This document shows, piece after piece, positions 1 through 47,904 of a stretch of DNA of 64,000 bases; position 1 is the stretch's first letter, and the number at the start of each line of letters is the position of its first letter. The translations under genes were made by a program, and so were the position numbers. Location: contig CAMIAK010000001.1 of assembly GCA_946222885.1 (NCBI GenBank), positions 230,806-294,805 on the forward strand, read 5' to 3'. The notes below the pieces were generated by a model. It saw nothing but the letters and a program-made list of their open reading frames with translations, ran no database searches and was not told the DNA's origin. This stretch comes from an uncultured Nesterenkonia sp. (GTDB lineage Bacteria; Actinomycetota; Actinomycetes; Actinomycetales; Micrococcaceae).

Positions 1-187
1 CGAGAGACCCCTGGCCGTCGGATTCCTATCCGTCGCCGCGCTGATGTACCTCTACAGCGTCATCGAGGCCCAAGTACTCAGCGACGGAAACCGGTGGCTA
101 CAGATCGGGTTCGTCGTCATCGCCCTCGGAGGGCTCGCCGCCCGGTGGTTGAGAATCCGGAAAGCGAACTACGACCCCGTGACATAG
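1..187 (+). CDS. 4-TM membrane protein, 3' fragment (copy 1 of the gene at 43221..43661; 5' end lies left of the window)
   Basis: Sequence identical to 43475..43661; ends at the TAG at 185-187. Confidence 0.5.
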   Translation, partial: ERPLAVGFLSVAALMYLYSVIEAQVLSDGNRWLQIGFVVIALGGLAARWLRIRKANYDPVT

Positions 188-197
188 GAGGGCTCTC

Positions 198-527
198 ATG
201 GGGGACGAGAACCCTCTGATCTACCTACTCGGCGGCGGATCACTATCGCTACTGATGGCAGCATTCATCAAAGGCGCGTGGGACTGGCTGAAAGGCCGAC
301 ACGAGCGAGAAAGAGCCCAGTCTAAGGACCGCCGCGACACCATCACCACCTTGAAGCAGGAGGTCCGGGACGCTGAGGCTGAGGCCGACGAGGCTCGGGC
401 AGAGTCCATCCGCCACCAGCGCCGAGCCAGCGTCCTCTGGGAGTACGCCTACCGGCTGAGGCGGCACACGATCAGCACCTACCAGGCTGACCCAGACAGC
501 CTCCCGCCCTGGCCCGAAGACCACTGA
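198..527 (+). CDS. lysis-cassette protein with N-terminal TM helix and charged coiled-coil tail (holin/spanin-like, hypothetical); copy 1
   Basis: 109-aa ORF with a GGGSLSLLMAAFIKGAW transmembrane segment followed by a charged helical region; sits immediately upstream of the endolysin; identical to 43672..44001. Confidence 0.5.
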   Translation: MGDENPLIYLLGGGSLSLLMAAFIKGAWDWLKGRHERERAQSKDRRDTITTLKQEVRDAEAEADEARAESIRHQRRASVLWEYAYRLRRHTISTYQADPDSLPPWPEDH

Positions 528-588
528 CCACACCCACAACCCCCGCTCCACACAGACGGGGGTTTTCTCATGCCTGAAGGAGGCCCCC

Positions 589-747
589 ATGGGGAAGCAC
601 CTGGTACACGACGACATCCCTATCGAGCTCGACGACGACGTGGATGTGTCCCTGCTCGACGCAGACCCGGACGACGAGGACAGCGGACTGGACCTGGAGA
701 AAGTCTACGCCGATGAGCTGGCCGACGCTGAGGAGGTGGAGGCATGA
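589..747 (+). CDS. small acidic protein (52 aa); copy 1
   Basis: ATG preceded by GAAGGAGG; very Asp/Glu-rich; its stop overlaps the endolysin ATG (ATGA). Confidence 0.4.
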   Translation: MGKHLVHDDIPIELDDDVDVSLLDADPDDEDSGLDLEKVYADELADAEEVEA

Positions 748-1898
748 GCACGATCATCTCCCGCGCCTCCTGGGGTGCTCGATTCCAGGACGGCTACGGT
801 AATCGCCCGGTCGGATCGCTGGCTGTGTACGGGCATCACAGCGTGACCGGCCACAGCGGCCCGTCGGCCACCTTCGCTCAGGACTGCGCCGCCGTGCGCA
901 CCGTCGAAAGGGTAGGGCAACAGATCTACCGAGTCGGGATGAGCTACACCTTCCTGATCCCGCCGTCTGGTCGGATCTTCCAAGGTGTCAGCATCGGCCG
1001 CGTCTCGGCCCACACGATCAACCGGAACACCGGTGGTGCCGGGATCTGCTTCATCGGCAATTACGAGCGCGAGTCCCTGACTGCCGCACAGATCGCGGCC
1101 ACAGCATGGCTCCTGGACCATGGGCGGCGGCAGGGCTGGTGGACCACTGACCGGTTCACCGCCCTGCACCGTGACGTCTTCGCCACCGCCTGCCCCGGCA
1201 GGAACGCCGTCAGTCCGCTCCGGGCTGTCCGGGCGTCCAGCGGCTCCACCTCCACCACGGGCGCCGGCTCCACCACCAATAGCCTGACCGGCTTCCTCCG
1301 CGCCACTCGCGACACGGAGCTGCGTAGCGGCCCTCTGTCCACGCACAAGAAGGTCCGCGACGTGAAGGAGGGTGAGCTGCTGATCGGCTCCGGGCAGGAT
1401 AGTCAGTGGTGGACTGGAGTCGGTGACCTTTGGGTGCCGAAATCCGCAGTCGAGAAGCGCAAGCACGGCGGTTCCAGTGACGTCCTGCACCACGGGCAGT
1501 GGCCCGACCGGGACCTGCCGCTGGACGCCAACCGGAGCCGTGAGTTCTTCCTCGCCTGGGAGGACCTCCTGCGCCGCACCGGCGACTGGAGCGACCGGGA
1601 CGGCAGCGTGCACGCGGCGATCAAGCGGTGGCTCCGCGGTGCATGGAACCCCGCCGCCAACTCTGGCAAGGGCTACGGCGTCGGCTGGGGCAAGGAGATG
1701 ACCGGCCAGTACGGGCGCGGCCTCAAGCGGGCACTACGCGACCGGGGCTTCTTCTCCGGCGACGTCTCCACCGGCGCATGGACCGACGAGCTCACCCGTG
1801 CGGAGAAGGCGTTCCTCAACGACCAGCGCCGCCACCTGGCACCCCAGCCGCCCTCGGCCACGACCCATACCCGCGCATTCTCAGGAAAGGTGCACTGA
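744..1898 (+). CDS. endolysin: N-acetylmuramoyl-L-alanine amidase (PGRP/Amidase_2) with C-terminal PG_binding_1-like domain; copy 1
   Basis: N-terminus shows the Amidase_2 pattern with His-His and a CPG zinc ligand (AVYGHHSVTGH ... ATACPG); the C-terminus has a GRGLKRALRDRGFF...TRAEKAFL peptidoglycan-binding motif. Confidence 0.85.
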   Translation: MSTIISRASWGARFQDGYGNRPVGSLAVYGHHSVTGHSGPSATFAQDCAAVRTVERVGQQIYRVGMSYTFLIPPSGRIFQGVSIGRVSAHTINRNTGGAGICFIGNYERESLTAAQIAATAWLLDHGRRQGWWTTDRFTALHRDVFATACPGRNAVSPLRAVRASSGSTSTTGAGSTTNSLTGFLRATRDTELRSGPLSTHKKVRDVKEGELLIGSGQDSQWWTGVGDLWVPKSAVEKRKHGGSSDVLHHGQWPDRDLPLDANRSREFFLAWEDLLRRTGDWSDRDGSVHAAIKRWLRGAWNPAANSGKGYGVGWGKEMTGQYGRGLKRALRDRGFFSGDVSTGAWTDELTRAEKAFLNDQRRHLAPQPPSATTHTRAFSGKVH

Positions 1899-1900
1899 TC

Positions 1901-2227
1901 ATGGCAGGAACCCCCACACAGCAGGCCCACCCGTGGAAAGCAGCCCTACGAACCGCGGTGCAGACCTTCCTTCCCCTGATCCTGGGGCTGATGATCGCAG
2001 GCCCGGAGATCGTGGAAGCCTTCGCTGACGTGCCCACTGATGGTGCCGCGTGGGCCACCCTCGGCGGTGTAGCAGTCGGCCTGTCTGCCGTGGCCGGTGC
2101 GCTGGCACGAGTCGCCGCAATCCCCGCCGTAGAGAAGGTGCTGATCCGCCTGGGTCTCGGCACCGGGGTCGAGAAAGAAGACCCCTGGGAAGTCGTCGAC
2201 AACCCGCCTGCACGCCCCGCAGAATAA
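1901..2227 (+). CDS. holin-like 2-TM protein; copy 1
   Basis: ATG overlaps the endolysin stop (TGATCATG); two hydrophobic helices (FLPLILGLMIAG, LGGVAVGLSAVAGALA) and a charged C-terminus. Confidence 0.6.
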   Translation: MAGTPTQQAHPWKAALRTAVQTFLPLILGLMIAGPEIVEAFADVPTDGAAWATLGGVAVGLSAVAGALARVAAIPAVEKVLIRLGLGTGVEKEDPWEVVDNPPARPAE

Positions 2228-2250
2228 GTACCGGAGCGAACACCGACAGA

Positions 2251-2294
2251 GCCGCCCCACCTTGCTTCGGCAGGGTGGGGCGGTTGCTTTTTTG
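2251..2294 (+). terminator. rho-independent terminator after lysis operon (copy 1)
   Basis: GC-rich stem GCCGCCCCACC...GGTGGGGCGG followed by a TTTTTT run. Confidence 0.7.
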
Positions 2295-2397
2295 TGTCCA
2301 AAACACGATTAGCCAGGTAGAATGAGAGCGGCCCCAGAGAGTGCTACCAACACTCACCAGGGCCTGACCCACTCACTTGAGATAGCAAGGAGGGGCT

Positions 2398-2931
2398 ATG
2401 AAAAAGCCTACCCCGATCACATCCATCCCCGAGTCCCAGGCCGAGATCGCTCGACTGCGGATTACACGCAACACGGACGTCTCGCCGCATGGTTGCTGGG
2501 AATGGAACAAGGCTCTCGACCGGTATGGATACGGTCGATTCCGCATCACATTGGCTGGTCAAGTTCGCTCCTCCGGCGCCCACCGCATATCTTGGCTTGT
2601 CTTCCGTGGGGAAATACCTGACCCGCGCTTGCAGATTGACCATCTCTGCCGCAACCGTCGATGTGTGAATCCCGATCATCTGGAACTCGTCACGAACTAT
2701 CAGAACTACGAGCGGGCAGCACCCTTCCCGGAATGGCAGTTCGGCGTTCGGGGCAGTCGTGGCCGCCCGCCTATCCGCACCAAGGAAAAATGTGCACACG
2801 GTCACCCATGGATCCCCGAGAACATCTATGTACGCGTGGATCGCAACGGATATGTCCACAAGACCTGCAAGCAGTGCAACCGCATTCGCAGCCTCGCGGC
2901 AAAGGTGAAGCGTCGGGCAAGCAGTGCCTAG
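2398..2931 (+). CDS. HNH endonuclease (HNH_3-type, free-standing); copy 1
   Basis: Motifs HGCWEW..YGYGRF..AHRISW..DHLCRNRRCVNPDHL..TN; RBS AAGGAGGG upstream. Confidence 0.85.
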   Translation: MKKPTPITSIPESQAEIARLRITRNTDVSPHGCWEWNKALDRYGYGRFRITLAGQVRSSGAHRISWLVFRGEIPDPRLQIDHLCRNRRCVNPDHLELVTNYQNYERAAPFPEWQFGVRGSRGRPPIRTKEKCAHGHPWIPENIYVRVDRNGYVHKTCKQCNRIRSLAAKVKRRASSA

Positions 2932-3127
2932 CCCAGGTCATACGGATCCCGCCATGATGACTCGGCCCGGCTGATCCTGTTTACCCACCCCGCAGGCACC
3001 CATGCGCTGCGGCTTTCGTGTGCCTAGGTGGCGTGAGGCCGGCCTCGCAAGGACACTAGTAGGTTCTCAGGAAGTCAACAGTCGCGACATCTCCTCCATG
3101 GCATCCTTAGCCGCAGGGGGTGGAGGC

Positions 3128-4243
3128 CTACGATCCCAGCGCCCGCGCCGCGTACCCTGCCGCCTCGAACTGCGCATCCGGCATCAGGTGTCCGTACACA
3201 TTCCTGGTCATTGTCTCGTCGTGTCCGAGGTGTGCGGCGAGCTTCCACGTCTCCATGCCGGCCGCCAGCATCAGTGACGCATGGGTATGCCTTAGCGCAT
3301 ACAGCGTTGGTTTCTTCGCCAGCTTGCCTGCTGTCCGAGCCTTCTCGGCAGCCCTGGAGAAAGCTCCAGACAGGGAGTCCTCTGACATCCAGTCGCCCCG
3401 AGCTCCGGGGAAGAGGCGTTCCTGGGACTCCCTGCCCTCACATCGCCTCTTCAGCATCTGCACCGCCGACGGTGGTAGCCCAATCGACCGGCGGGACGCC
3501 CGGGACTTCACCGGGCCAAGATGCTCGCCCTTCTCGCGGTCCTGATTGATAGCGATTGTCACCCGGATTACCGGCTGCTTTTGGTCTAGCCAGCAGTCCC
3601 CGACAGTGAGGGCGCGCAGCTCAGCAGGCCGCATACCGGTGGCAAGCATGAGCGCTGCTGCATCCTGGTAGGGCTGCGGAATCCGGTCAATGATCGCTTG
3701 GGCTTCGGTTCTGGTGAGGAACTGGTGATGCTCGGCCTCGTCTGTGCGCTCCACAGGAGGGAGCATCCCTGCTTTCATCGGGTTTCCAGACCTCCAGCCG
3801 CGCTCCTCGGCGTGCAGGAAGATGCTGGATAGCCAGCCGCAGATGTTGTGGATGTACTTCGGGCTCAGCCCCTTCTTCTCCAGGGAGATCACGAAGCGGC
3901 GGCAATCGTCCTCGCTGACCGTGTCCACCGGCCAAGACCCTAAAGTAGGACTGATGTGATTCTTGACGTAGGTCCGATAAGTCTGCACCGTGTAGGAGCG
4001 CGCTCGAAGCAGCTCCATCCTGTGCTCTGAGACCTGATTTACAGTCTTGGCGCGGGAAGACTGGCGTGCCAGTGCCTCGGCGGCGCGCTTACTGTCGCCG
4101 CCTACCTCCTCGATCAGTGACTTCCAGAGGTCTGCCTTCTCCCGGGTGGGCCATGTCTTGGATTTCTTGATGCCTTCTGGTGTGCGCCATACGACGCGGT
4201 ATGTCGTCCCCCTGGGACGCTCGCGGACTTCGATGCTAGCCAT
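3128..4243 (-). CDS. int: tyrosine integrase (phage integrase family); copy 1
   Basis: Arm-binding N-terminus (RPRGTTYRVVWRTPEGIKKSKTWPT) and a C-terminal catalytic region with R..H..R..Y (LRHTHASLML...HDETMTRNVYGHL); adjacent to the att site. Confidence 0.9.
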   Translation of the reverse strand: MASIEVRERPRGTTYRVVWRTPEGIKKSKTWPTREKADLWKSLIEEVGGDSKRAAEALARQSSRAKTVNQVSEHRMELLRARSYTVQTYRTYVKNHISPTLGSWPVDTVSEDDCRRFVISLEKKGLSPKYIHNICGWLSSIFLHAEERGWRSGNPMKAGMLPPVERTDEAEHHQFLTRTEAQAIIDRIPQPYQDAAALMLATGMRPAELRALTVGDCWLDQKQPVIRVTIAINQDREKGEHLGPVKSRASRRSIGLPPSAVQMLKRRCEGRESQERLFPGARGDWMSEDSLSGAFSRAAEKARTAGKLAKKPTLYALRHTHASLMLAAGMETWKLAAHLGHDETMTRNVYGHLMPDAQFEAAGYAARALGS

Positions 4244-4340
4244 GCCCTGATTCTAAGGGATTCTGGGGGACATAATTCCGTAACTGGGGGACTGGAAGCG
4301 ATTCGACACCCTCGGATCGGCATTATTCCGGCCCTCATTC

Positions 4341-4363
4341 GGCGGAGCGTGTGGGATTCGAAC
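4341..4363. other. attP-like core: last ~23 nt of tRNA-Ser (GGCGGAGCGTGTGGGATTCGAAC) at the phage-phage junction of the tandem prophage
   Basis: Identity with the 3' end of the full tRNA-Ser at 47815..47837; identity with copy 2 ends exactly at 4363/47837, after which phage left-arm sequence begins. Confidence 0.6.
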
Positions 4364-4508: not shown

Positions 4509-4982
4509 TTATGACGTGGATATGACCGGCGCGATGGTGCCCGCGTAGACCTCTACCAGCCGGGGGAGCACGCCCAGCTCTTGGGCGACGGACTGGGAGC
4601 AGTCGGGGTAGATAGCGGTCGCCAGGGTCCACTCTGCGGGACTGATCAGCAGCCATGCTGCGTAGGTGTCGGCCTGGTCCTCGTGCTTCAGGGAGGTCCA
4701 CCGGTGGCCGTGGTGGGCGTGACCCAGCTCGTGGGCAAGCGTGGACCTGTACTGGATCGGCCCGAGACCGGAGAGGAGCCGGATCGTCCTGTGCCGGTGG
4801 TCGTATTCTCCCCACCTGCCTCGGCGCAGACTGGTCCGGTGCTCCACGTGCACGCCCATCCGGTGAGCGATCCCCTCAAGATCAGCCATGAGAGGGACGC
4901 TACCGGCAGGCAGGGACATGGCTACGTGGCACTGAATCAGGAAATAACTGTGCCCCCAGGCGAAAGCCCAGGGGCACAGCAT
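4509..4982 (-). CDS. ImmA/IrrE-family metallopeptidase (COG2856)
   Basis: HEXXH motif LAHELGHAHHGH with downstream Glu; last gene of the leftward repressor operon. True start may be the internal Met (MSLPAG...). Confidence 0.75.
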   Translation of the reverse strand: MLCPWAFAWGHSYFLIQCHVAMSLPAGSVPLMADLEGIAHRMGVHVEHRTSLRRGRWGEYDHRHRTIRLLSGLGPIQYRSTLAHELGHAHHGHRWTSLKHEDQADTYAAWLLISPAEWTLATAIYPDCSQSVAQELGVLPRLVEVYAGTIAPVISTS

Positions 4983-4994
4983 GCAAGGTTAATA

Positions 4995-5201
4995 TCAGCC
5001 TGTGGCGCGAAGGCGGCGAGCAAGGGTGTTAGCGCGCTTGGCGGTCTCATAGGCACGTCGATCCCGGAATACCAGGACTTCGTTTCGGTCACTTCGTTCG
5101 AGCTTGTAACCGGTCTCGTAAGTGGTGCCCCTCTGAACGCGCACCACTTTCTTATCGCCATTTGAAGGGGTGACGGACTTACGTTTAACCATGCGGATCA
5201 C
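4995..5201 (-). CDS. small basic hypothetical protein (68 aa), lower GC
   Basis: ORF in the repressor operon; AT-richer codons than its surroundings. Confidence 0.4.
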   Translation of the reverse strand: MIRMVKRKSVTPSNGDKKVVRVQRGTTYETGYKLERSDRNEVLVFRDRRAYETAKRANTLARRLRATG

Positions 5202-5694
5202 CTTCCTCTGGTGACTTCAGTGTATCCCCGCCAGACGTCTCTTGCTTGACTTCCTTCATCCTGTCCGTGAAGCTTTCCCAATCGTTACCGGGTGCGCCTC
5301 CTCCAGTGTTCTCGAAGACAGTATCGAGAATGGTAGTCATCAGTTCGGAGATGAAGAATCGGTCATCAGGGGTGACGTTCCAGTCCCACGCTTTGCGCGC
5401 TGCTTCATCGGGCTCTGAGTTCTCGTCTAGCTGAGATGTGTACGGCTCCTCTGAGCTAAGCATTCCCAGCATAGTGATTCCAAGCCCGACCTCGTTGAGG
5501 TCTTTACTGTGGCATTTGTCTATGGCGTATTGGACTCTGCGCCACCATTCGGCCTTGATGTCAGCCTGTTTTCGGTTAGAGATCGAACGCCAGGCAATGG
5601 CGCCTGCCCCTGTGGCTGCTAGCAGGGTTGCTATCGCGGCACTGTATTCAGCCCACATGGGGCCGGACTCAACGACTATTTCAATGGTGCTCAT
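5185..5694 (-). CDS. membrane-anchored hypothetical protein (169 aa), lower GC
   Basis: Single TM segment (AAIATLLAATGAGAIAW); sits between the repressor and ImmA. Confidence 0.45.
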   Translation of the reverse strand: MSTIEIVVESGPMWAEYSAAIATLLAATGAGAIAWRSISNRKQADIKAEWWRRVQYAIDKCHSKDLNEVGLGITMLGMLSSEEPYTSQLDENSEPDEAARKAWDWNVTPDDRFFISELMTTILDTVFENTGGGAPGNDWESFTDRMKEVKQETSGGDTLKSPEEGDPHG

Positions 5695-6179
5695 GGGCTG
5701 TGCTCTATGTCGTCGGGCCCGATCTGACCGTGGTCGCCCTGGTGCAGACTGTCGTCTGCGGCTAGGTCGTAGTCGTCGGGGTCTTCTGTGGCCGCACTCC
5801 CTGCGGCCTGATTCATGGGGGCGGCGTCTCCACGATGCCCCACCTCCTCTCCGTGTCCCTGCTCTGCCGCCACGGCCCTAATCAGCTCCGTAAGTGCGTC
5901 CTGGGTGCGCTTCGAGAGGCGGTGAACCTCGGTCGGCGGCTCCCATGCACGGGGCTGGATCTCTTGGCCGTGGGTGAGCTTGTAGATCTCCTTGGCAGGC
6001 ACGCGCAGAGCCTTCGCGAGAGCGTTGATCGTCTCATCACCGGGGGTGTGATCCCCGTGGACGGTGCGACTCGCAGTGCTCTGAGACATTCCGGCGCGCT
6101 CGGCAAGGCGACGGATAGACGAGAGTCCCGCCTTCTCCATCAGCTCCTGCCACTGCTGCGGCGTCTGTCTACGTGCCAT
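5691..6179 (-). CDS. XRE-family HTH repressor (cI/ImmR-like)
   Basis: HTH_3 motif IRRLAERAGMSQSTASRTV; divergent from the cro-like gene; alternative TTG start at 6200. Confidence 0.75.
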   Translation of the reverse strand: MARRQTPQQWQELMEKAGLSSIRRLAERAGMSQSTASRTVHGDHTPGDETINALAKALRVPAKEIYKLTHGQEIQPRAWEPPTEVHRLSKRTQDALTELIRAVAAEQGHGEEVGHRGDAAPMNQAAGSAATEDPDDYDLAADDSLHQGDHGQIGPDDIEHSP

Positions 6180-6379
6180 GAGGACAACCTTCTGAGACAA
6201 GGGGAAGCAAGGGCAACACCGAGTGTAGACGTTGCGGTTACAAACTCAGCTCAGATTCCCCGTGAATGCCCACAATTCAGGCGTTTACGGATGGGTTGCG
6301 CCCTGTAATCGAAGCCGTGTACAGTGAGTCTTGCATCGCCGAACACGGCGGGGTAAGGTTTACACATCAGGAGGAATCA
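6180..6379. promoter_or_regulatory. divergent repressor/cro switch region (operators not resolved)
   Basis: ~200-bp intergenic region between the divergent HTH genes; contains a CCGTGT..ACACGG inverted repeat and recurring GTTTAC/GTTAC half-site-like motifs. Confidence 0.4.
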
Positions 6380-6682
6380 GTGAGGACCTTCGCCAAGACC
6401 AGTCGAGGAGGAGTTTTCTTCGTGGAACTCATCAGCACAGATGCGCTGCGGCAGTACATGCGCTACCGCAACTACAGCGTCAAGGGGCTGGCGGATCGCA
6501 TCGGAGTCAGCAAGGCAACCATCGGCCACCTGCACTCAGGGGGCCGGAAGACGGTGGGGCCGGAGATTGCCAAGTCCATAGAGCGAGCACTGGACGCGCC
6601 AATCGGGTCTCTCTTTGTACCCAAAGTGAGTCATGGTGCACGCACCGGCGTCCACGCTAGCGGACGAAAGCAGGCGGCGTGA
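6380..6682 (+). CDS. Cro-like XRE HTH regulator
   Basis: GTG start 6 nt after AGGAGGA; HTH LADRIGVSKATIGHLHSG; ORF-track start 6266 is probably too far upstream. Confidence 0.65.
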   Translation: MRTFAKTSRGGVFFVELISTDALRQYMRYRNYSVKGLADRIGVSKATIGHLHSGGRKTVGPEIAKSIERALDAPIGSLFVPKVSHGARTGVHASGRKQAA

Positions 6683-6813
6683 TGGTGTACATCGCTATCG
6701 CCATCGCACTGGCCTCTATTTGCACCAGCGGCCTGAGTATTTATTGGGCCAAAGAGGCAGAGCGCATCAACGAGAAGATACGAGAGCTAGACCGGAGAGA
6801 CGGGGAGCTATGA
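6682..6813 (+). CDS. small membrane peptide (43 aa)
   Basis: Overlapping TGATG start with cro; MVYIAIAIALASICTSGLSIYW transmembrane segment plus a charged tail. Below the ORF-track size cutoff. Confidence 0.4.
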   Translation: MVYIAIAIALASICTSGLSIYWAKEAERINEKIRELDRRDGEL

Positions 6814-6815
6814 GG

Positions 6816-7289
6816 TCACTCCGCGAAGAACCCGCGAGGAGCAAACTCGGAGATGTTCCCTTTCTGCGTCTGGAACTGAACCCGCAGGCTGATTCTCAGC
6901 GGAGGCGGGATGTGCATCGGGGAGTCGGACTTCGGTTTTCTTCGCAGGTTAGCCAAGCTGATCTCCCAACGCTCTTGCTTAGTGATCGGTCGTCCCACGT
7001 GCAAGACATTGGGCGCCCCGCTCCCGACCGTCAACGTGACGATCGGATCAATCGCGGGGTCGTCAGAGTGGTTCAGCACAGCAAGCACGGACCGACTCGC
7101 GTCCCACTCGTATTCGAGCTTCACCACTGCATTCTCGGCACGTCTCTCAAACTCCGCGTTGCTGATCAGGACCGAGCGCCGCGTGTACCGGACAGCAAAA
7201 ACGGATACGACGAAGGCAGCCACGGCTATTCCAATGGCTATCCACTCACCTGGGGCGACATCGTTCAGGAACTGAAGCAGCTCTTCCAC
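6816..7289 (-). CDS. antisense-oriented membrane protein (157 aa), candidate superinfection-exclusion/lysogenic-conversion gene
   Basis: N-terminal TM (WIAIGIAVAAFVVSVFAV) plus a soluble domain; opposite orientation to the early operon; amino-acid composition looks genuine, unlike the overlapping Arg-rich 6633..7352 ORF. Confidence 0.55.
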   Translation of the reverse strand: MEELLQFLNDVAPGEWIAIGIAVAAFVVSVFAVRYTRRSVLISNAEFERRAENAVVKLEYEWDASRSVLAVLNHSDDPAIDPIVTLTVGSGAPNVLHVGRPITKQERWEISLANLRRKPKSDSPMHIPPPLRISLRVQFQTQKGNISEFAPRGFFAE

Positions 7290-7371
7290 ATCGACACCCT
7301 ATCCACCCCCAAGAAAAATGCCCCCGCAGTTGCAGCTGCGGAGGCGAAGTGATCAATAAGGAGATCGATCA

Positions 7372-7698
7372 ATGTCTACTCTACAGAAACTCATCGTCAA
7401 GGGCACGCACGACGAGCTGCCCAACGCCAAACACGGACGCTACAGCCGGTCCAACCCGCTGTGGGATGCCGTAGCCGAACAAGCACGGGACGCCGCCGGC
7501 CGCTGGGTCGCGTTCGAGATCCCGGGGCGCGGCTCCAAGAGCCTCGGCTCAGCCCGAACACACATCAAGGCAGGCAAGTACACCGCATTCTCAGACGGCG
7601 CTTGGGATGCCGCAGTGCGCGGAAACCTCATCTACGTCCGCTACTTGGGCGAAGCGTCCGCGGAGGTTGTGGACTTCAAGAAGGCGGAGGTGGCGTGA
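7372..7698 (+). CDS. hypothetical protein
   Basis: 108-aa ORF; RBS AAGGAGA upstream. Confidence 0.5.
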   Translation: MSTLQKLIVKGTHDELPNAKHGRYSRSNPLWDAVAEQARDAAGRWVAFEIPGRGSKSLGSARTHIKAGKYTAFSDGAWDAAVRGNLIYVRYLGEASAEVVDFKKAEVA

Positions 7699-8480
7699 TG
7701 GTGGAGATCATCCACGAGCAGCAGGACCAGCTCATCCCGATCAGGGAGCACGACGGCCAGCAGGCTGTCAGCGGCCGCGACCTCCACAGCTTCCTGGGTC
7801 TTGGCCGGGACTACACCACCTGGTTCAAGAAAATGACCGAGTACGGCTTCGTAGAGGGTCAGGACTACCTCCCCATTTCGGGGGAGGTTGCCCGAGAGGG
7901 ACGCGGGAGCGTCGAGCGCAAGGATCACGCGATCACTCTGGACATGGCGAAGGAACTGTCCATGATCCAGCGCACCGAGCGGGGCAAGCAGGCCCGCCAG
8001 TACTTCATCGAGTGCGAGAAGCAGATGAAAGCCCAGCCGTCCCGAGCGCTCACCTTCGAAGAGAAGACGCTGGAAGTCCTCCAGGGACTCTCCCAGCAGG
8101 TGGAGACTCAGCGTCGAGCGCTGGCAGTGGCAAAACCCAAGGCAGAGGCGTATGACGACTTCCTCTCCGACGGCGGCGACTATGACCGGCGCGGGGCCGC
8201 TTCCATCCTCTCCCGCCGCCACGGAGTCAACATCGGCCAGAACCAGCTAACCGACCTGCTCATCTCATGGGGCTGGATCGGAGAGGACCGACGGCCCAAG
8301 TACCCGTACACGGCGCGAGAGTACTTCACCTCCCGCCCCTACAAGGACCCGATCCTCAACGAGAAGACCGGGCAGTACTTCACCCCCGCCCCTCAGCTGC
8401 GCATCACCGCGAAGGGTATCGACGCCATCGCGAAGCGGATCAAGCGCGCTGAGGCGACCCCGAAGGAGATTGCGGCATGA
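7698..8480 (+). CDS. antirepressor (Rha-family N-terminal domain plus KilAC C-terminal domain)
   Basis: ATGA overlap with the upstream gene; N-terminal region (SGRDLHSFLGLGRDYTTWFKKMTEYGF) reads as Rha-like, C-terminal half as KilAC-like. Confidence 0.7.
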   Translation: MVEIIHEQQDQLIPIREHDGQQAVSGRDLHSFLGLGRDYTTWFKKMTEYGFVEGQDYLPISGEVAREGRGSVERKDHAITLDMAKELSMIQRTERGKQARQYFIECEKQMKAQPSRALTFEEKTLEVLQGLSQQVETQRRALAVAKPKAEAYDDFLSDGGDYDRRGAASILSRRHGVNIGQNQLTDLLISWGWIGEDRRPKYPYTAREYFTSRPYKDPILNEKTGQYFTPAPQLRITAKGIDAIAKRIKRAEATPKEIAA

Positions 8481-8800
8481 GGCAAGAGCGCCTGTACAAG
8501 ATCCGTGTCATCGAGTCCGACGAGCCAGATGACTTCGACTACGACGAACCCTGGGAGTCTGACCCGAACCCGCCCGGGTGGCGCGAGTACGCGCAGCAGC
8601 ACCCGCGGATCCCGGATGACGCCGACTTCTTCATCCCCCGGAAGGCGTGGGGAATCTTCCGCAGCAGGTCCAGCGCGAAGGACAAGCTGGCCTACTTCAC
8701 CCGATGGGGCATTGAGGCCGAGATCGTGGAGTGCACCCCGGCCTGGGAGAGCATCCCGGCGGCCAATGCCCGCCGTGCCCGCGAGAGGAGCGCCCGATGA
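8477..8800 (+). CDS. hypothetical protein
   Basis: 107-aa ORF, translationally coupled. Confidence 0.5.
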   Translation: MRQERLYKIRVIESDEPDDFDYDEPWESDPNPPGWREYAQQHPRIPDDADFFIPRKAWGIFRSRSSAKDKLAYFTRWGIEAEIVECTPAWESIPAANARRARERSAR

Positions 8801-9048
8801 CCACCGTGAGTACTGATTACAGGGTCTCAGATGTGGCCGAAGCGTTCGGGGTGAAGCCCCGCACGATCCGGGACTGGATCAAGCGCGGCAAGCTCCAAGC
8901 CTACAAGGTGCCCGACGATACGCCCCGCAGCGAGTACCGGGTTCCCGCGTCTGAGGTGGAGCGCATTAAGAACCGGTCCGCTCGCGCCGAGCAGCTGCCC
9001 CAGGATCTGGATGCCCTGATGGACAGGGCTCTGAAGCGCGCCGCCTAG
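8797..9048 (+). CDS. excisionase-like HTH protein (HTH_17/MerR-like Xis family)
   Basis: ATGA overlap start; motif YRVSDVAEAFGVKPRTIRDWIKRGKLQAYKV. Confidence 0.6.
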   Translation: MTTVSTDYRVSDVAEAFGVKPRTIRDWIKRGKLQAYKVPDDTPRSEYRVPASEVERIKNRSARAEQLPQDLDALMDRALKRAA

Positions 9049-43224: not shown

Positions 43225-43661
43225 ATAAGCCACGCGCACCACTCGGGCTCGCATCGAAGGTCTGGGCATTCATCGAGGAACCGAAGTCGGTCACCCTCGT
43301 CCAAGCAGTCGGGGTCTACACCACCGCGATAATCTTCGGCGTGCTCTCATTCCTGCACCCGCCCCGGACCACGTCAGTGATCCTCGGTGACTTCCTGGTC
43401 ACCAGCATCTCTGCGCTGATGATCTTCGCCGGGGCGGTAGGTGTGGTCACTAGCGTTACTGGCTGGTGGTGGATCGAGAGACCCCTGGCCGTCGGATTCC
43501 TATCCGTCGCCGCGCTGATGTACCTCTACAGCGTCATCGAGGCCCAAGTACTCAGCGACGGAAACCGGTGGCTACAGATCGGGTTCGTCGTCATCGCCCT
43601 CGGAGGGCTCGCCGCCCGGTGGTTGAGAATCCGGAAAGCGAACTACGACCCCGTGACATAG
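43221..43661 (+). CDS. 4-TM membrane protein (holin/antiholin-like) heading the lysis cassette
   Basis: Four hydrophobic helices; upstream of the endolysin. Confidence 0.55.
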   Translation: MNKPRAPLGLASKVWAFIEEPKSVTLVQAVGVYTTAIIFGVLSFLHPPRTTSVILGDFLVTSISALMIFAGAVGVVTSVTGWWWIERPLAVGFLSVAALMYLYSVIEAQVLSDGNRWLQIGFVVIALGGLAARWLRIRKANYDPVT

Positions 43662-43671
43662 GAGGGCTCTC

Positions 43672-44001
43672 ATGGGGGACGAGAACCCTCTGATCTACCT
43701 ACTCGGCGGCGGATCACTATCGCTACTGATGGCAGCATTCATCAAAGGCGCGTGGGACTGGCTGAAAGGCCGACACGAGCGAGAAAGAGCCCAGTCTAAG
43801 GACCGCCGCGACACCATCACCACCTTGAAGCAGGAGGTCCGGGACGCTGAGGCTGAGGCCGACGAGGCTCGGGCAGAGTCCATCCGCCACCAGCGCCGAG
43901 CCAGCGTCCTCTGGGAGTACGCCTACCGGCTGAGGCGGCACACGATCAGCACCTACCAGGCTGACCCAGACAGCCTCCCGCCCTGGCCCGAAGACCACTG
44001 A
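43672..44001 (+). CDS. TM plus coiled-coil lysis-cassette protein (copy 2 of 198..527)
   Basis: Identical to copy 1. Confidence 0.5.
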   Translation: MGDENPLIYLLGGGSLSLLMAAFIKGAWDWLKGRHERERAQSKDRRDTITTLKQEVRDAEAEADEARAESIRHQRRASVLWEYAYRLRRHTISTYQADPDSLPPWPEDH

Positions 44002-44062
44002 CCACACCCACAACCCCCGCTCCACACAGACGGGGGTTTTCTCATGCCTGAAGGAGGCCCCC

Positions 44063-44221
44063 ATGGGGAAGCACCTGGTACACGACGACATCCCTATCGA
44101 GCTCGACGACGACGTGGATGTGTCCCTGCTCGACGCAGACCCGGACGACGAGGACAGCGGACTGGACCTGGAGAAAGTCTACGCCGATGAGCTGGCCGAC
44201 GCTGAGGAGGTGGAGGCATGA
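44063..44221 (+). CDS. small acidic protein (copy 2 of 589..747)
   Basis: Identical to copy 1. Confidence 0.4.
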   Translation: MGKHLVHDDIPIELDDDVDVSLLDADPDDEDSGLDLEKVYADELADAEEVEA

Positions 44222-45372
44222 GCACGATCATCTCCCGCGCCTCCTGGGGTGCTCGATTCCAGGACGGCTACGGTAATCGCCCGGTCGGATCGCTGGCTGT
44301 GTACGGGCATCACAGCGTGACCGGCCACAGCGGCCCGTCGGCCACCTTCGCTCAGGACTGCGCCGCCGTGCGCACCGTCGAAAGGGTAGGGCAACAGATC
44401 TACCGAGTCGGGATGAGCTACACCTTCCTGATCCCGCCGTCTGGTCGGATCTTCCAAGGTGTCAGCATCGGCCGCGTCTCGGCCCACACGATCAACCGGA
44501 ACACCGGTGGTGCCGGGATCTGCTTCATCGGCAATTACGAGCGCGAGTCCCTGACTGCCGCACAGATCGCGGCCACAGCATGGCTCCTGGACCATGGGCG
44601 GCGGCAGGGCTGGTGGACCACTGACCGGTTCACCGCCCTGCACCGTGACGTCTTCGCCACCGCCTGCCCCGGCAGGAACGCCGTCAGTCCGCTCCGGGCT
44701 GTCCGGGCGTCCAGCGGCTCCACCTCCACCACGGGCGCCGGCTCCACCACCAATAGCCTGACCGGCTTCCTCCGCGCCACTCGCGACACGGAGCTGCGTA
44801 GCGGCCCTCTGTCCACGCACAAGAAGGTCCGCGACGTGAAGGAGGGTGAGCTGCTGATCGGCTCCGGGCAGGATAGTCAGTGGTGGACTGGAGTCGGTGA
44901 CCTTTGGGTGCCGAAATCCGCAGTCGAGAAGCGCAAGCACGGCGGTTCCAGTGACGTCCTGCACCACGGGCAGTGGCCCGACCGGGACCTGCCGCTGGAC
45001 GCCAACCGGAGCCGTGAGTTCTTCCTCGCCTGGGAGGACCTCCTGCGCCGCACCGGCGACTGGAGCGACCGGGACGGCAGCGTGCACGCGGCGATCAAGC
45101 GGTGGCTCCGCGGTGCATGGAACCCCGCCGCCAACTCTGGCAAGGGCTACGGCGTCGGCTGGGGCAAGGAGATGACCGGCCAGTACGGGCGCGGCCTCAA
45201 GCGGGCACTACGCGACCGGGGCTTCTTCTCCGGCGACGTCTCCACCGGCGCATGGACCGACGAGCTCACCCGTGCGGAGAAGGCGTTCCTCAACGACCAG
45301 CGCCGCCACCTGGCACCCCAGCCGCCCTCGGCCACGACCCATACCCGCGCATTCTCAGGAAAGGTGCACTGA
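44218..45372 (+). CDS. endolysin: amidase_2/PGRP plus PG-binding domain (copy 2)
   Basis: Identical to 744..1898. Confidence 0.85.
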   Translation: MSTIISRASWGARFQDGYGNRPVGSLAVYGHHSVTGHSGPSATFAQDCAAVRTVERVGQQIYRVGMSYTFLIPPSGRIFQGVSIGRVSAHTINRNTGGAGICFIGNYERESLTAAQIAATAWLLDHGRRQGWWTTDRFTALHRDVFATACPGRNAVSPLRAVRASSGSTSTTGAGSTTNSLTGFLRATRDTELRSGPLSTHKKVRDVKEGELLIGSGQDSQWWTGVGDLWVPKSAVEKRKHGGSSDVLHHGQWPDRDLPLDANRSREFFLAWEDLLRRTGDWSDRDGSVHAAIKRWLRGAWNPAANSGKGYGVGWGKEMTGQYGRGLKRALRDRGFFSGDVSTGAWTDELTRAEKAFLNDQRRHLAPQPPSATTHTRAFSGKVH

Positions 45373-45374
45373 TC

Positions 45375-45701
45375 ATGGCAGGAACCCCCACACAGCAGGC
45401 CCACCCGTGGAAAGCAGCCCTACGAACCGCGGTGCAGACCTTCCTTCCCCTGATCCTGGGGCTGATGATCGCAGGCCCGGAGATCGTGGAAGCCTTCGCT
45501 GACGTGCCCACTGATGGTGCCGCGTGGGCCACCCTCGGCGGTGTAGCAGTCGGCCTGTCTGCCGTGGCCGGTGCGCTGGCACGAGTCGCCGCAATCCCCG
45601 CCGTAGAGAAGGTGCTGATCCGCCTGGGTCTCGGCACCGGGGTCGAGAAAGAAGACCCCTGGGAAGTCGTCGACAACCCGCCTGCACGCCCCGCAGAATA
45701 A
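45375..45701 (+). CDS. holin-like 2-TM protein (copy 2)
   Basis: Identical to 1901..2227. Confidence 0.6.
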   Translation: MAGTPTQQAHPWKAALRTAVQTFLPLILGLMIAGPEIVEAFADVPTDGAAWATLGGVAVGLSAVAGALARVAAIPAVEKVLIRLGLGTGVEKEDPWEVVDNPPARPAE

Positions 45702-45724
45702 GTACCGGAGCGAACACCGACAGA

Positions 45725-45768
45725 GCCGCCCCACCTTGCTTCGGCAGGGTGGGGCGGTTGCTTTTTTG
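45725..45768 (+). terminator. rho-independent terminator after lysis operon (copy 2)
   Basis: Identical to 2251..2294. Confidence 0.7.
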
Positions 45769-45871
45769 TGTCCAAAACACGATTAGCCAGGTAGAATGAG
45801 AGCGGCCCCAGAGAGTGCTACCAACACTCACCAGGGCCTGACCCACTCACTTGAGATAGCAAGGAGGGGCT

Positions 45872-46405
45872 ATGAAAAAGCCTACCCCGATCACATCCAT
45901 CCCCGAGTCCCAGGCCGAGATCGCTCGACTGCGGATTACACGCAACACGGACGTCTCGCCGCATGGTTGCTGGGAATGGAACAAGGCTCTCGACCGGTAT
46001 GGATACGGTCGATTCCGCATCACATTGGCTGGTCAAGTTCGCTCCTCCGGCGCCCACCGCATATCTTGGCTTGTCTTCCGTGGGGAAATACCTGACCCGC
46101 GCTTGCAGATTGACCATCTCTGCCGCAACCGTCGATGTGTGAATCCCGATCATCTGGAACTCGTCACGAACTATCAGAACTACGAGCGGGCAGCACCCTT
46201 CCCGGAATGGCAGTTCGGCGTTCGGGGCAGTCGTGGCCGCCCGCCTATCCGCACCAAGGAAAAATGTGCACACGGTCACCCATGGATCCCCGAGAACATC
46301 TATGTACGCGTGGATCGCAACGGATATGTCCACAAGACCTGCAAGCAGTGCAACCGCATTCGCAGCCTCGCGGCAAAGGTGAAGCGTCGGGCAAGCAGTG
46401 CCTAG
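45872..46405 (+). CDS. HNH endonuclease (HNH_3-type; copy 2)
   Basis: Identical to 2398..2931. Confidence 0.85.
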   Translation: MKKPTPITSIPESQAEIARLRITRNTDVSPHGCWEWNKALDRYGYGRFRITLAGQVRSSGAHRISWLVFRGEIPDPRLQIDHLCRNRRCVNPDHLELVTNYQNYERAAPFPEWQFGVRGSRGRPPIRTKEKCAHGHPWIPENIYVRVDRNGYVHKTCKQCNRIRSLAAKVKRRASSA

Positions 46406-46601
46406 CCCAGGTCATACGGATCCCGCCATGATGACTCGGCCCGGCTGATCCTGTTTACCCACCCCGCAGGCACCCATGCGCTGCGGCTTTCGTGTGCCTA
46501 GGTGGCGTGAGGCCGGCCTCGCAAGGACACTAGTAGGTTCTCAGGAAGTCAACAGTCGCGACATCTCCTCCATGGCATCCTTAGCCGCAGGGGGTGGAGG
46601 C

Positions 46602-47717
46602 CTACGATCCCAGCGCCCGCGCCGCGTACCCTGCCGCCTCGAACTGCGCATCCGGCATCAGGTGTCCGTACACATTCCTGGTCATTGTCTCGTCGTGTCC
46701 GAGGTGTGCGGCGAGCTTCCACGTCTCCATGCCGGCCGCCAGCATCAGTGACGCATGGGTATGCCTTAGCGCATACAGCGTTGGTTTCTTCGCCAGCTTG
46801 CCTGCTGTCCGAGCCTTCTCGGCAGCCCTGGAGAAAGCTCCAGACAGGGAGTCCTCTGACATCCAGTCGCCCCGAGCTCCGGGGAAGAGGCGTTCCTGGG
46901 ACTCCCTGCCCTCACATCGCCTCTTCAGCATCTGCACCGCCGACGGTGGTAGCCCAATCGACCGGCGGGACGCCCGGGACTTCACCGGGCCAAGATGCTC
47001 GCCCTTCTCGCGGTCCTGATTGATAGCGATTGTCACCCGGATTACCGGCTGCTTTTGGTCTAGCCAGCAGTCCCCGACAGTGAGGGCGCGCAGCTCAGCA
47101 GGCCGCATACCGGTGGCAAGCATGAGCGCTGCTGCATCCTGGTAGGGCTGCGGAATCCGGTCAATGATCGCTTGGGCTTCGGTTCTGGTGAGGAACTGGT
47201 GATGCTCGGCCTCGTCTGTGCGCTCCACAGGAGGGAGCATCCCTGCTTTCATCGGGTTTCCAGACCTCCAGCCGCGCTCCTCGGCGTGCAGGAAGATGCT
47301 GGATAGCCAGCCGCAGATGTTGTGGATGTACTTCGGGCTCAGCCCCTTCTTCTCCAGGGAGATCACGAAGCGGCGGCAATCGTCCTCGCTGACCGTGTCC
47401 ACCGGCCAAGACCCTAAAGTAGGACTGATGTGATTCTTGACGTAGGTCCGATAAGTCTGCACCGTGTAGGAGCGCGCTCGAAGCAGCTCCATCCTGTGCT
47501 CTGAGACCTGATTTACAGTCTTGGCGCGGGAAGACTGGCGTGCCAGTGCCTCGGCGGCGCGCTTACTGTCGCCGCCTACCTCCTCGATCAGTGACTTCCA
47601 GAGGTCTGCCTTCTCCCGGGTGGGCCATGTCTTGGATTTCTTGATGCCTTCTGGTGTGCGCCATACGACGCGGTATGTCGTCCCCCTGGGACGCTCGCGG
47701 ACTTCGATGCTAGCCAT
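46602..47717 (-). CDS. int: tyrosine integrase (copy 2)
   Basis: Identical to 3128..4243; adjacent to the complete tRNA-Ser. Confidence 0.9.
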   Translation of the reverse strand: MASIEVRERPRGTTYRVVWRTPEGIKKSKTWPTREKADLWKSLIEEVGGDSKRAAEALARQSSRAKTVNQVSEHRMELLRARSYTVQTYRTYVKNHISPTLGSWPVDTVSEDDCRRFVISLEKKGLSPKYIHNICGWLSSIFLHAEERGWRSGNPMKAGMLPPVERTDEAEHHQFLTRTEAQAIIDRIPQPYQDAAALMLATGMRPAELRALTVGDCWLDQKQPVIRVTIAINQDREKGEHLGPVKSRASRRSIGLPPSAVQMLKRRCEGRESQERLFPGARGDWMSEDSLSGAFSRAAEKARTAGKLAKKPTLYALRHTHASLMLAAGMETWKLAAHLGHDETMTRNVYGHLMPDAQFEAAGYAARALGS

Positions 47718-47813
47718 GCCCTGATTCTAAGGGATTCTGGGGGACATAATTCCGTAACTGGGGGACTGGAAGCGATTCGACACCCTCGGATCGGCATTAT
47801 TCCGGCCCTCATT

Positions 47814-47904
47814 CGGCGGAGCGTGTGGGATTCGAACCCACGGTGCAGGGTCACTGCACAACAGTTTTCAAGACTGTCACCTTCGGCCGCTCGGACAACG
47901 CTCC
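47814..47904 (-). tRNA. tRNA-Ser (anticodon TGA), type II with long variable arm; prophage attachment target
   Basis: Reverse complement GGAGCGT...TTGTGCAGTGACCCTGCAC...GGGTTCGAATCCCACACGCTCCGCC; anticodon loop CTTGAAA; 7-bp acceptor stem; GTTCGAATC T-loop. Confidence 0.85.
47815..47837. other. attR core (shared with the attP-like junction at 4341..4363)
   Basis: Copy-1/copy-2 identity ends at 47837; host tRNA body continues from 47838. Confidence 0.6.

What the first reader, a model, noticed from the sequence alone, without database searches (positions are those of the whole stretch)
6682..7371. Convergent small membrane peptide and antisense membrane protein embedded in the early-lytic operon
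Right after cro, a 43-aa TM peptide on the + strand is followed by a 157-aa TM protein encoded on the opposite strand (6816..7289). The antisense gene has its own upstream region at 7290..7371, which contains the hairpin CCGCAGttgcagCTGCGG. A gene transcribed against the lytic direction in this position is a classic lysogenic-conversion or superinfection-exclusion arrangement. Neither protein shows a recognisable family from sequence alone.
Basis: inference. Interest (0 to 1): 0.55.

Follow-up and report, generated by a model that had tools for sequence, protein, structure and literature searches.

The report
Reverse membrane gene plus antisense terminator
Between cro and the antirepressor operon, this actinobacterial prophage carries an exchangeable pair of membrane-protein genes with no known relatives, and the hairpin next to them is the terminator of a predicted small antisense RNA aimed at the antirepressor operon; the layout is a familiar kind, but its parts are new and untested.

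Summary

- **The minus-strand ORF is the real gene.** Codon statistics favour it over the open plus-strand mirror ORF. In two related phages the syntenic minus-strand frame is conserved and the mirror frame is not.
- **It has no detectable relatives.** Searches of 5.8 billion proteins, 1.84 billion cluster representatives and every family library returned only itself.
- **The slot between cro and a conserved 108-aa/antirepressor operon is variable.** It is empty in two relatives. In three it holds the peptide plus a reverse, N-terminally anchored membrane protein, with two unrelated C-terminal domains among them.
- **A likely leaderless promoter is conserved.** All three reverse genes follow the 12-mer GGTGGATAGGGT, which places a TAGGGT -10 element 6-7 nt before the start codon.
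- **The hairpin is not part of that promoter.** It is a minus-strand intrinsic terminator, conserved with compensatory changes even where no reverse gene exists. It ends a predicted ~60-nt antisense RNA covering the ribosome-binding site of the 108-aa gene, as P22 sar does for ant.

A lysogen-expressed exclusion or defence role is plausible but untested. This is ordinary in kind and modestly interesting.

The parts
6380..6682 (+). cro-like HTH gene. Alternative starts are GTG 6380, GTG 6422 and ATG 6266. It is the first gene of the rightward early operon.
   Evidence: HTH_3/HTH_31 hits. Shine-Dalgarno sequences precede both 6380 and 6422. Homologous cro genes occur in the relatives.
6682..6813 (+). 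43-aa peptide gene: an N-terminal transmembrane helix followed by a charged helix (…KIRELDRRDGEL). It is translationally coupled to cro through a TGATG overlap.
   Evidence: coordinates. (+0.24 bits/codon). (hydrophobic segment 2-20). Analogous peptides lie in the same position in L003 and L004, 27-31% identical, sharing an I..L.RRD motif with L003.
6816..7289 (-). 157-aa gene with no relatives: an acidic N-terminus, one transmembrane helix (residues 15-33), an RYTRR flank, and a strand-rich C-terminal domain of about 120 aa.
   Evidence: coding strand. (only itself found). (helix and flank charges). (secondary structure from low-confidence models).
7296..7307 (-). Conserved 12-mer GGTGGATAGGGT. 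TAGGGT (7301 to 7296) is a -10 element of the TANNNT type, 6 nt before the GTG start. It is a candidate promoter for a leaderless mRNA.
   Evidence: The identical 12-mer precedes the reverse genes of L003 (7-nt spacer) and L004/L006 (6-nt spacer). It occurs once in the window. DNA similarity between window and L003 in this part is confined to 7296-7352.
7311..7345 (-). Intrinsic terminator on the minus strand: a 10-bp stem (7320-7345), a 6-nt loop, and the tail AUUUUUCUU (7319 to 7311).
   Evidence: The scan finds it here and in L003, L004 and L007. On the minus strand 51 of 51 pair cells form, with one U·G pair per sequence and 2 pairs with compensatory changes. On the plus strand 90% form, with one C·A mismatch per sequence. 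The minus-strand fold is 2-6 kcal/mol more stable.
7346..7370 (-). 5' part of the predicted antisense RNA. The stem-loop GAUCGAU-CUCCUU-AUUGAUC shows the complement of the Shine-Dalgarno sequence AAGGAG (7358-7363) in its loop.
   Evidence: 60 nt, -26.8 kcal/mol, z = -6.6. All five relatives fold as a 5' stem-loop plus terminator. The minus strand is always the more stable. The 5' stem is not in a common register across relatives.
7378..7383 (-). Predicted -10 element (TAGAGT) of the antisense-RNA promoter, inside codons 3-4 of the 108-aa gene. The expected transcription start is near 7370-7371.
   Evidence: A TANNNT hexamer is kept in all five relatives (TAGAGT, TAGCCT, TACAGT, TACACT, TAGACT). 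It depends on a rare CTA or GTA codon in every one. CTA is 3.6% of Leu codons and GTA 9.5% of Val codons in this phage.
7372..8480 (+). Target operon: the 108-aa gene (7372-7698), overlapping by GTGATG the AntA/KilAC antirepressor gene (7698-8480).
   Evidence: AntA 4.6e-24, ANT 1.8e-13. The 108-aa family has 5 clusters, always followed by a Bro-N or Ant gene where Pfam hits are on record.

Best explanation
Two separate things lie side by side.

**1. An exchangeable two-gene cargo (6682-7307)** sits between cro and the antirepressor operon.
- The 43-aa membrane peptide is made with cro from the early rightward promoter.
- The 157-aa protein is made from the opposite strand, from its own TAGGGT promoter, as a leaderless mRNA.
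- It is anchored in the membrane by its N-terminal helix. Its variable C-terminal domain is probably on the cytoplasmic side.
- No terminator separates the two convergent genes, and no plus-strand promoter is evident for the downstream operon. Rightward early transcription must therefore run through the reverse gene.
- So the 157-aa protein would be made mainly when the early promoter is repressed, in the lysogen, and shut down on induction.
- Its most likely role is an accessory one for the lysogen: exclusion of, or defence against, other phages at the membrane.

**2. The hairpin (7311-7345) belongs to the neighbouring operon.**
- It terminates a ~60-nt antisense RNA that starts inside the first codons of the 108-aa gene.
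- That RNA covers the gene's Shine-Dalgarno sequence, limiting translation of the 108-aa/antirepressor operon as sar RNA does for ant in P22.
- It also stops this leftward transcript just before the reverse gene's promoter.

**Shown:** the ORFs, the coding strand, the lack of relatives, the variability of the slot, the conserved 12-mer, and the strand-specific conserved terminator.
**Inferred:** promoter activity, leaderless start, timing of expression, topology, protein function, and the existence and action of the antisense RNA.
For: - **Coding strand.**. In L003 and L004 the minus-strand frames align over the full length (E 4e-12, 2e-4) while the plus-strand mirror frames do not.
- **Variable slot.**
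  - L007 and L008-L010 go from cro straight to the terminator and the 110/111-aa gene.
  - The window, L003 and L004/L005/L006 carry the peptide plus a reverse membrane protein.
  - The window's protein is unrelated to the other two.
- **Promoter.** The identical 12-mer lies 6-7 nt from each start codon, with no usable Shine-Dalgarno sequence. It is unique in the window.
- **No terminator or stable structure at the convergent junction**.
- **Membrane anchor and charge bias.** Every member has no K or R before the helix and 2-5 after it.
- **Terminator.**
- **Antisense promoter and fold.**
- **Antirepressor downstream.**
- **Precedents.** Prophage-expressed membrane proteins that exclude or abort other phages in actinobacteriophages (PMC6426606). 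sar RNA inhibiting antirepression in P22 (PMC5415839).
Against: - There are no transcript data, so neither promoter is shown to fire.
- The TAGGGT element has no -35 partner.
- The 157-aa protein has no relatives at all, so conservation cannot confirm that it is translated. All 8 public copies are identical.
- Presence or absence of the cargo among only five relatives can be explained by a single gain or loss. The peptide-protein pairing therefore rests on thin phylogenetic evidence.
- There is no similarity to any known defence or exclusion protein.
- Structure models are poor (pLDDT 48-53).
- The 5' stem-loop of the antisense RNA is not in a common register in the alignment.
- The -10 of the antisense promoter overlaps a conserved protein motif (L/V-Q-K-L-I-V-K-G). 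Part of its conservation is therefore due to coding.
- No Rfam family matches.
Confidence: 0.55

Rival explanations
1. The minus-strand transcript is mainly regulatory. A leftward promoter to the right of cro sends RNA antisense through the peptide gene and cro towards cI, lowering Cro and feeding repressor synthesis, as the lambda P_RE transcript does. The 157-aa ORF would then be a passenger or secondary.
For: The reverse gene points the same way as cI (5691-6200, -) and lies on the far side of cro. No minus-strand terminator lies between 6816 and cro, so its transcript should run antisense into the peptide gene and cro. The promoter 12-mer is conserved while the gene behind it has been swapped.
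Against: Relatives L007 and L008-L010 have cI and cro but no such promoter, so it is not a core part of the switch. The ORFs behind it show coding signatures and a conserved architecture. No activator site is evident.
Confidence: 0.15
2. The peptide and the reverse gene work as a toxin-antidote pair of the type I kind. The small hydrophobic peptide harms the membrane, and the convergent overlapping transcript, or the 157-aa protein itself, holds it in check.
For: The peptide is 43 aa, with one transmembrane helix and a charged tail. The convergent genes have 3' ends 2 nt apart here and overlap by 10 and 19 nt in L003 and L004. No terminator lies between them. The peptide and the reverse gene occur together or not at all.
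Against: The peptide gene has no promoter of its own. It is coupled to the preceding early gene by a TGATG overlap in all three phages. It would therefore be silent in the lysogen, where a toxin-antidote pair needs to act. No toxin family matched.
Confidence: 0.08
3. The 157-aa ORF is a shadow of a real plus-strand gene (6633-7352), or the stretch is non-coding and only the plus-strand early transcript matters.
For: Both strands are open here (239 aa on +). The same is true in L003 and L004, and a public gene call on L004 chose the plus-strand frame. The protein has no relatives.
Against: Codon position GC and codon log-likelihood favour the minus strand. Only the minus-strand frames are conserved between L003 and L004. 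A clean N-terminal membrane helix appears in all three minus-strand frames. A conserved promoter-like element sits at a fixed distance from each minus-strand start.
Confidence: 0.07
4. The hairpin is a protein-binding palindrome (an operator) or a plus-strand RNA element of the early transcript, not a minus-strand terminator.
For: Compensatory changes would also keep a DNA palindrome symmetric. The plus strand still folds, at -17 to -21 kcal/mol for the hairpin stretch. It lies on the path of the early transcript.
Against: Every relative has one mismatch that is C·A on the plus strand and U·G on the minus strand. Every relative has the T-run on the minus-strand 3' side only. The sequence of the inner stem varies freely (CGCAG, CAGCAG, CACCTG, CAGCTG), which a specific operator would not tolerate. 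No copy of it lies in the cI-cro intergenic region.
Confidence: 0.1

Closest known systems
Prophage-expressed membrane proteins that exclude or abort other phages in actinobacteriophages: the mycobacteriophage Charlie single membrane protein, Gordonia phage CarolAnn gp43/44, Sbash gp30/31 (PMC6426606). From my own knowledge also lactococcal Sie2009 and P22 SieA.
   Same: A temperate phage gene next to the immunity region, oriented like the repressor and against the early lytic genes. It is membrane-anchored, variable between close relatives, and without wider homologues.
   Different: There is no sequence or profile similarity to any of them. It has a single N-terminal helix, not the four-helix channel type of CarolAnn gp43. 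It lies to the right of cro inside the early operon rather than in the repressor operon. It is paired with a small early-strand peptide. Neither expression nor phenotype has been tested.
Morons of lambdoid phages: extra transcription units present in some relatives and absent in others (my own knowledge of the Hendrix/Juhala definition; accessory loci reviewed in PMC7067206).
   Same: It is present or absent among relatives in a fixed slot, and has a candidate promoter of its own.
   Different: It has no terminator of its own at the 3' end. The promoter appears to belong to the conserved backbone, with the gene behind it swapped.
P22 sar RNA, a ~69-nt antisense RNA over the ant ribosome-binding site (PMC5415839; details from my own knowledge of Liao et al. 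and Wu et al., 1987), and lambda OOP RNA.
   Same: A short leftward transcript inside a rightward operon, complementary to the ribosome-binding site of the operon that carries the antirepressor, and ending in an intrinsic terminator.
   Different: There is no sequence relation and no Rfam match. The host is a high-GC Gram-positive bacterium. The target is the 108-aa gene upstream of ant, not ant itself. It is predicted only.

Membership tests
Superinfection-exclusion / prophage defence membrane proteins | Encoded by a temperate phage or prophage | tested here: met
   Integrase, ImmA-like peptidase, cI and cro are present. The prophage ends at tRNA-Ser.
Superinfection-exclusion / prophage defence membrane proteins | Expressed in the lysogen, independently of the lytic promoters | tested here: inconclusive
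   A conserved TAGGGT element lies 6 nt from the start codon. There are no transcript data.
Superinfection-exclusion / prophage defence membrane proteins | Membrane-located | tested here: met
   One hydrophobic helix at residues 15-33, mean Kyte-Doolittle score 2.29. This is a prediction only.
Superinfection-exclusion / prophage defence membrane proteins | Blocks DNA entry or growth of a superinfecting phage | not testable with these tools
   This needs plating and DNA-entry assays.
Superinfection-exclusion / prophage defence membrane proteins | Homology to a described exclusion or defence protein | tested here: not met
   No PADLOC, Pfam, PHROG, NCBIfam or PDB match. Only itself was found in the two large protein searches.
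Moron | Present in some close relatives and absent in others at the same position | tested here: met
Moron | Own promoter and own downstream terminator | tested here: not met
   A candidate promoter is present. No terminator or stable structure follows the stop at 6816.
sar-type cis-antisense RNA | Short transcript complementary to the ribosome-binding site of the target, with its own promoter and terminator | tested here: inconclusive
   The terminator is well supported. The -10 is kept through rare codons. The fold has z = -6.6. Transcription is not shown.
sar-type cis-antisense RNA | Target operon encodes an antirepressor | tested here: met
   AntA and KilAC domains at 7698-8480, overlapping the 108-aa gene.
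sar-type cis-antisense RNA | Sequence or structure homology to a curated RNA family | tested here: not met
   No Rfam match at E up to 1 in 5000-9000.
Type I toxin-antitoxin | Small hydrophobic toxin peptide with its own promoter, controlled by an overlapping antisense RNA | tested here: not met
   The peptide fits in size and hydrophobicity. However, it is coupled to the preceding early gene by a TGATG overlap and has no promoter of its own.
RexAB / CarolAnn gp43-44 type abortive infection | Multi-pass channel protein plus a DUF4747-like sensor | tested here: not met
   Each protein has a single helix. There is no Pfam or PADLOC hit.

The most novel reading that the evidence does not exclude
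The stretch from the leaderless TAGGGT promoter to the antisense-RNA terminator is a fixed expression socket in this phage lineage. Unrelated membrane-anchored effector domains are swapped into it. The conserved early-strand peptide is the phage's own off-switch: on induction it neutralises the effector in the membrane, while convergent early transcription stops its synthesis. This would be a new two-part exclusion or abortive-infection system with built-in self-immunity.
Probability: 0.12. Interest if true: 0.65.

Novelty: new member of a known kind. Interest (0 to 1): 0.36.

Why it matters
If the 157-aa protein protects the lysogen, it adds a defence or exclusion protein with no known relatives, from a host group (most likely Microbacterium) where none has been described. 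It would also show that such genes can be swapped behind a fixed leaderless promoter.

The predicted antisense RNA would be a sar-like control of an antirepressor operon in an actinobacterial phage, a group where phage antisense RNAs are little studied to my knowledge. It gives a simple test: one synonymous codon change.

The case also shows a practical trap. In high-GC phages both strands of such a gene stay open, and one public gene call in a relative took the wrong strand.

Tried and rejected
- **Homology for the 157-aa protein.** None found in any of:
  - Pfam, PHROGs, PADLOC, NCBIfam and PDB sequences;
  - tblastn against 50,697 phage records;
  - the word-indexed search of 5.8 billion proteins;
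  - full HMMER against 1.84 billion representatives.
- **Profile of the L003 and L004 reverse proteins.** It returned only L003's own protein.
- **More relatives of the 108-aa family.** None in genome contigs, viral contigs, metagenome contigs or the phage records.
- **Structure.** Single-sequence AlphaFold2 models of the full protein and of residues 40-157 were poor (pLDDT 48.5 and 53.3). Foldseek on the better model gave only weak FN3/Ig-like sandwich matches (best E 0.011, TM below 0.5). I do not use these.
- **Rfam.** No match.
- **Operator-like repeats linking the cI-cro region to 7290-7371.** None convincing.
- **Plus-strand promoter hit at 7291-7319 (TCGACA-17-AAAAAT).** Rejected. It is not conserved in the relatives, and its A-run is explained by the minus-strand terminator tail.
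- **TTGACG as a -35 for the antisense promoter.** Rejected, because it lies only 11 nt from the -10.
- **Generic terminator-pattern scan of IMG/VR.** It returned mostly unrelated terminators and gave no further relatives.
- **Extra contigs carrying the same cI.** Too short to show the slot.

Full report
**Setting.** The window holds a prophage of about 63% G+C in a host of about 70% G+C.
- Bases 1-4363 are identical to 43475-47837. Two copies of a 43,474-bp unit therefore lie in tandem, ending at tRNA-Ser.
- The closest cultured phage by large terminase is Microbacterium phage Footloose, at 75% identity. The host is therefore probably a Microbacterium; this is an inference.
- The immunity region reads as follows:
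  - ImmA-like peptidase 4509-4982 (-);
  - a 169-aa membrane-anchored ORF 5185-5694 (-);
  - cI-like HTH 5691-6200 (-);
  - cro-like HTH ending at 6682 (+);
  - the 43-aa peptide 6682-6813 (+);
  - the 157-aa ORF 6816-7289 (-);
  - a 108-aa gene 7372-7698 (+);
  - an AntA/KilAC antirepressor 7698-8480 (+).

- The peptide's ATG overlaps the cro stop as TGATG. The reverse ORF starts at GTG 7289 and stops at 6816.
- Both strands are open here, with a 239-aa plus-strand ORF at 6633-7352, so the coding strand had to be tested.
  - Codon-position G+C is 0.61/0.43/0.72 on the minus strand and 0.70/0.47/0.59 on the plus strand.
  - A codon model trained on twelve long ORFs (at least 250 aa) of this prophage gives +0.15 and -0.11 bits per codon respectively. 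cI scores +0.20 and the peptide +0.24.
  - Public gene calls on eight contigs take the minus-strand ORF and the 43-aa ORF.

**No relatives.**
- The 157-aa protein matched only itself in the 5.8-billion-protein search and in a full HMMER scan of 1.84 billion representatives.
- It matched nothing in Pfam, PHROGs, PADLOC, NCBIfam, PDB sequences or the phage records.
- Single-sequence structure models were poor. Their Foldseek matches were weak and generic.

**Relatives of the neighbourhood.** The 108-aa protein has four other clusters, at 66-87% identity. Their contigs show what the slot between cro and this gene can hold.
- In L007 and L008-L010, cro is followed directly by the hairpin and the 110/111-aa gene.
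- In L003 and in L004/L005/L006, the slot holds a small plus-strand peptide with an N-terminal membrane helix and an Arg-rich tail. A reverse ORF converges on it: 189 aa in L003 (1287-1856) and 182 aa in L004 (3591-4139).
- The two reverse proteins are homologous over their full length on the minus-strand frame (E 4e-12). Their plus-strand mirror frames are not conserved. This settles the coding strand there, although one public gene call chose the mirror frame.
- The window's 157-aa protein is unrelated to them.
- All three share one architecture: an acidic N-terminus, one helix, then a K/R-rich flank. By the positive-inside rule the C-terminal domain faces the cytoplasm (inference).
- The three peptides are weakly alike, at 27-31% identity. 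The window's KIRELDRRD aligns with L003's QIARLNRRD.

**A promoter for the reverse gene.**
- In all three phages the reverse start codon is preceded by the identical 12-mer GGTGGATAGGGT, with 6, 7 and 6 nt between TAGGGT and the start codon.
- The 12-mer occurs once in the window.
- TAGGGT fits the TANNNT -10 element of actinobacterial housekeeping promoters. The spacing puts the transcription start on the start codon, which makes a leaderless mRNA, a form common in actinobacteria (my own knowledge). No usable Shine-Dalgarno sequence is present.
- DNA similarity between the window and L003 in this part is confined to 7296-7352. The promoter therefore belongs to the conserved frame, and the gene behind it has been exchanged.

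**The hairpin is a minus-strand terminator.**
- Read on the minus strand it is GCCUCCGCAG-CUGCAA-CUGCGGGGGC followed by AUUUUUCUU.
- The same element is found by the scan in L003, L004 and L007 and is visible in L010. That includes the phages with no reverse gene, where it abuts the cro stop.
- On the minus strand all 51 pair cells form. Two pairs show compensatory changes, and each sequence has one U·G pair.
- On the plus strand that position is a C·A mismatch in every sequence, so only 90% of cells pair.
- The minus-strand hairpin is 2-6 kcal/mol more stable in all five. The T-run is always on the minus-strand 3' side.
- It therefore ends a leftward transcript, and all genes to its right are rightward.

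**Source of that transcript.**
- Inside codons 3-4 (or 5-7 in the longer versions) of the 108-aa gene, all five relatives keep a minus-strand TANNNT: TAGAGT, TAGCCT, TACAGT, TACACT and TAGACT.
- It depends on a CTA or GTA codon in every case. CTA is 3.6% of Leu codons and GTA 9.5% of Val codons in this phage. It also depends on the preceding codon starting with A.
- A start near 7370 gives a 60-nt RNA that folds as a 5' stem-loop with CUCCUU in the loop, followed by the terminator. CUCCUU is the complement of the Shine-Dalgarno sequence at 7358-7363. The fold is -26.8 kcal/mol with z = -6.6.
- The other four give the same two-hairpin shape, with z from -4.5 to -6.6. All are more stable than their plus-strand complements.
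- The 5' stems are not in a common register in the alignment, so only the terminator is supported by covariation.
- Rfam has no match.
- By design this resembles P22 sar RNA, which inhibits antirepressor synthesis (PMC5415839).

**How the cargo probably works.**
- No terminator or stable structure lies at the convergent junction.
- No conserved plus-strand promoter precedes the 108-aa gene. Early rightward transcription should therefore cross the reverse gene.
- The reverse gene would then be expressed when the early promoter is repressed and suppressed on induction (inference).
- It is a membrane-anchored protein with an exchangeable domain, placed beside the immunity genes and oriented like the repressor. 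That is the pattern of prophage exclusion and defence genes in actinobacteriophages (PMC6426606).
- I take this as the most likely role, at roughly 35-40% for defence or exclusion specifically. The rest is spread over the rivals listed in the report.
- The peptide's role is unknown. That it occurs with the reverse gene in three mosaic contexts suggests a functional link, but one gain or loss could explain the pattern.

**Verdict.**
- The hairpin was misread. It is the best-supported functional element here, and it belongs to a different unit.
- The finding is a new member of a known kind, resting on sequence evidence only.

Noticed in passing
window 1-4363 and 43475-47837: The two stretches are 100% identical. 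This indicates two tandem copies of a 43,474-bp prophage, with integrase at the right end and tRNA-Ser (47815-47904) at the junction with the host. The same contig in ENA shows both junction types. It could be true tandem lysogeny or an assembly effect.
   Followed up: partly
window 5185-5694 (-): A 169-aa ORF overlaps the cI stop. It has an N-terminal hydrophobic segment and a K/R-rich flank and matches no family. A 50% identical homologue sits behind cI in L004 (1094-1537). It is a second candidate lysogen-expressed membrane protein, in the repressor operon.
   Followed up: partly
L004 3591-4172 (also L005): The public gene call took the plus-strand mirror ORF (3606-4172, 188 aa). The frame conserved with L003 is the minus-strand ORF 3591-4139. 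This is a likely wrong-strand annotation, typical of high-GC DNA.
   Followed up: yes
L004 4172-4324 (+): A 50-aa ORF lies between the TAGGGT promoter and the terminator, and its 3' end runs through the terminator hairpin. Its codon-position G+C (0.71/0.51/0.57) does not look coding.
   Followed up: no
L004 2798-3475 (+): A 225-aa T5orf172-like (GIY-YIG type) gene is inserted between cro and the peptide gene. This is another sign that the region is a mosaic hot spot.
   Followed up: no
L035 2400-2500, also L122 and L132 (IMG/VR contigs): Unrelated low-GC phage contigs show the same design. A TATAAT lies inside the first codons of a 316-aa replication-like gene. It is followed on the antisense strand by the complement of that gene's ribosome-binding site and an antisense-only terminator. 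The layout may be a recurrent phage device.
   Followed up: partly
L011 3282-4024 (Microbacterium phage Footloose MZ150789, 25281-26023): A 744-bp unannotated gap follows the cro-side HTH genes and holds no credible ORF. Its nature is unknown.
   Followed up: no
window 6296-6324 (+): A candidate early rightward promoter upstream of cro, TTGCGC-18 nt-TACAGT. Its -10 is preceded by TG, as in the predicted antisense-RNA promoters (CTGTAGAGT and CTGTACAGT). This was read from the sequence and not tested.
   Followed up: no
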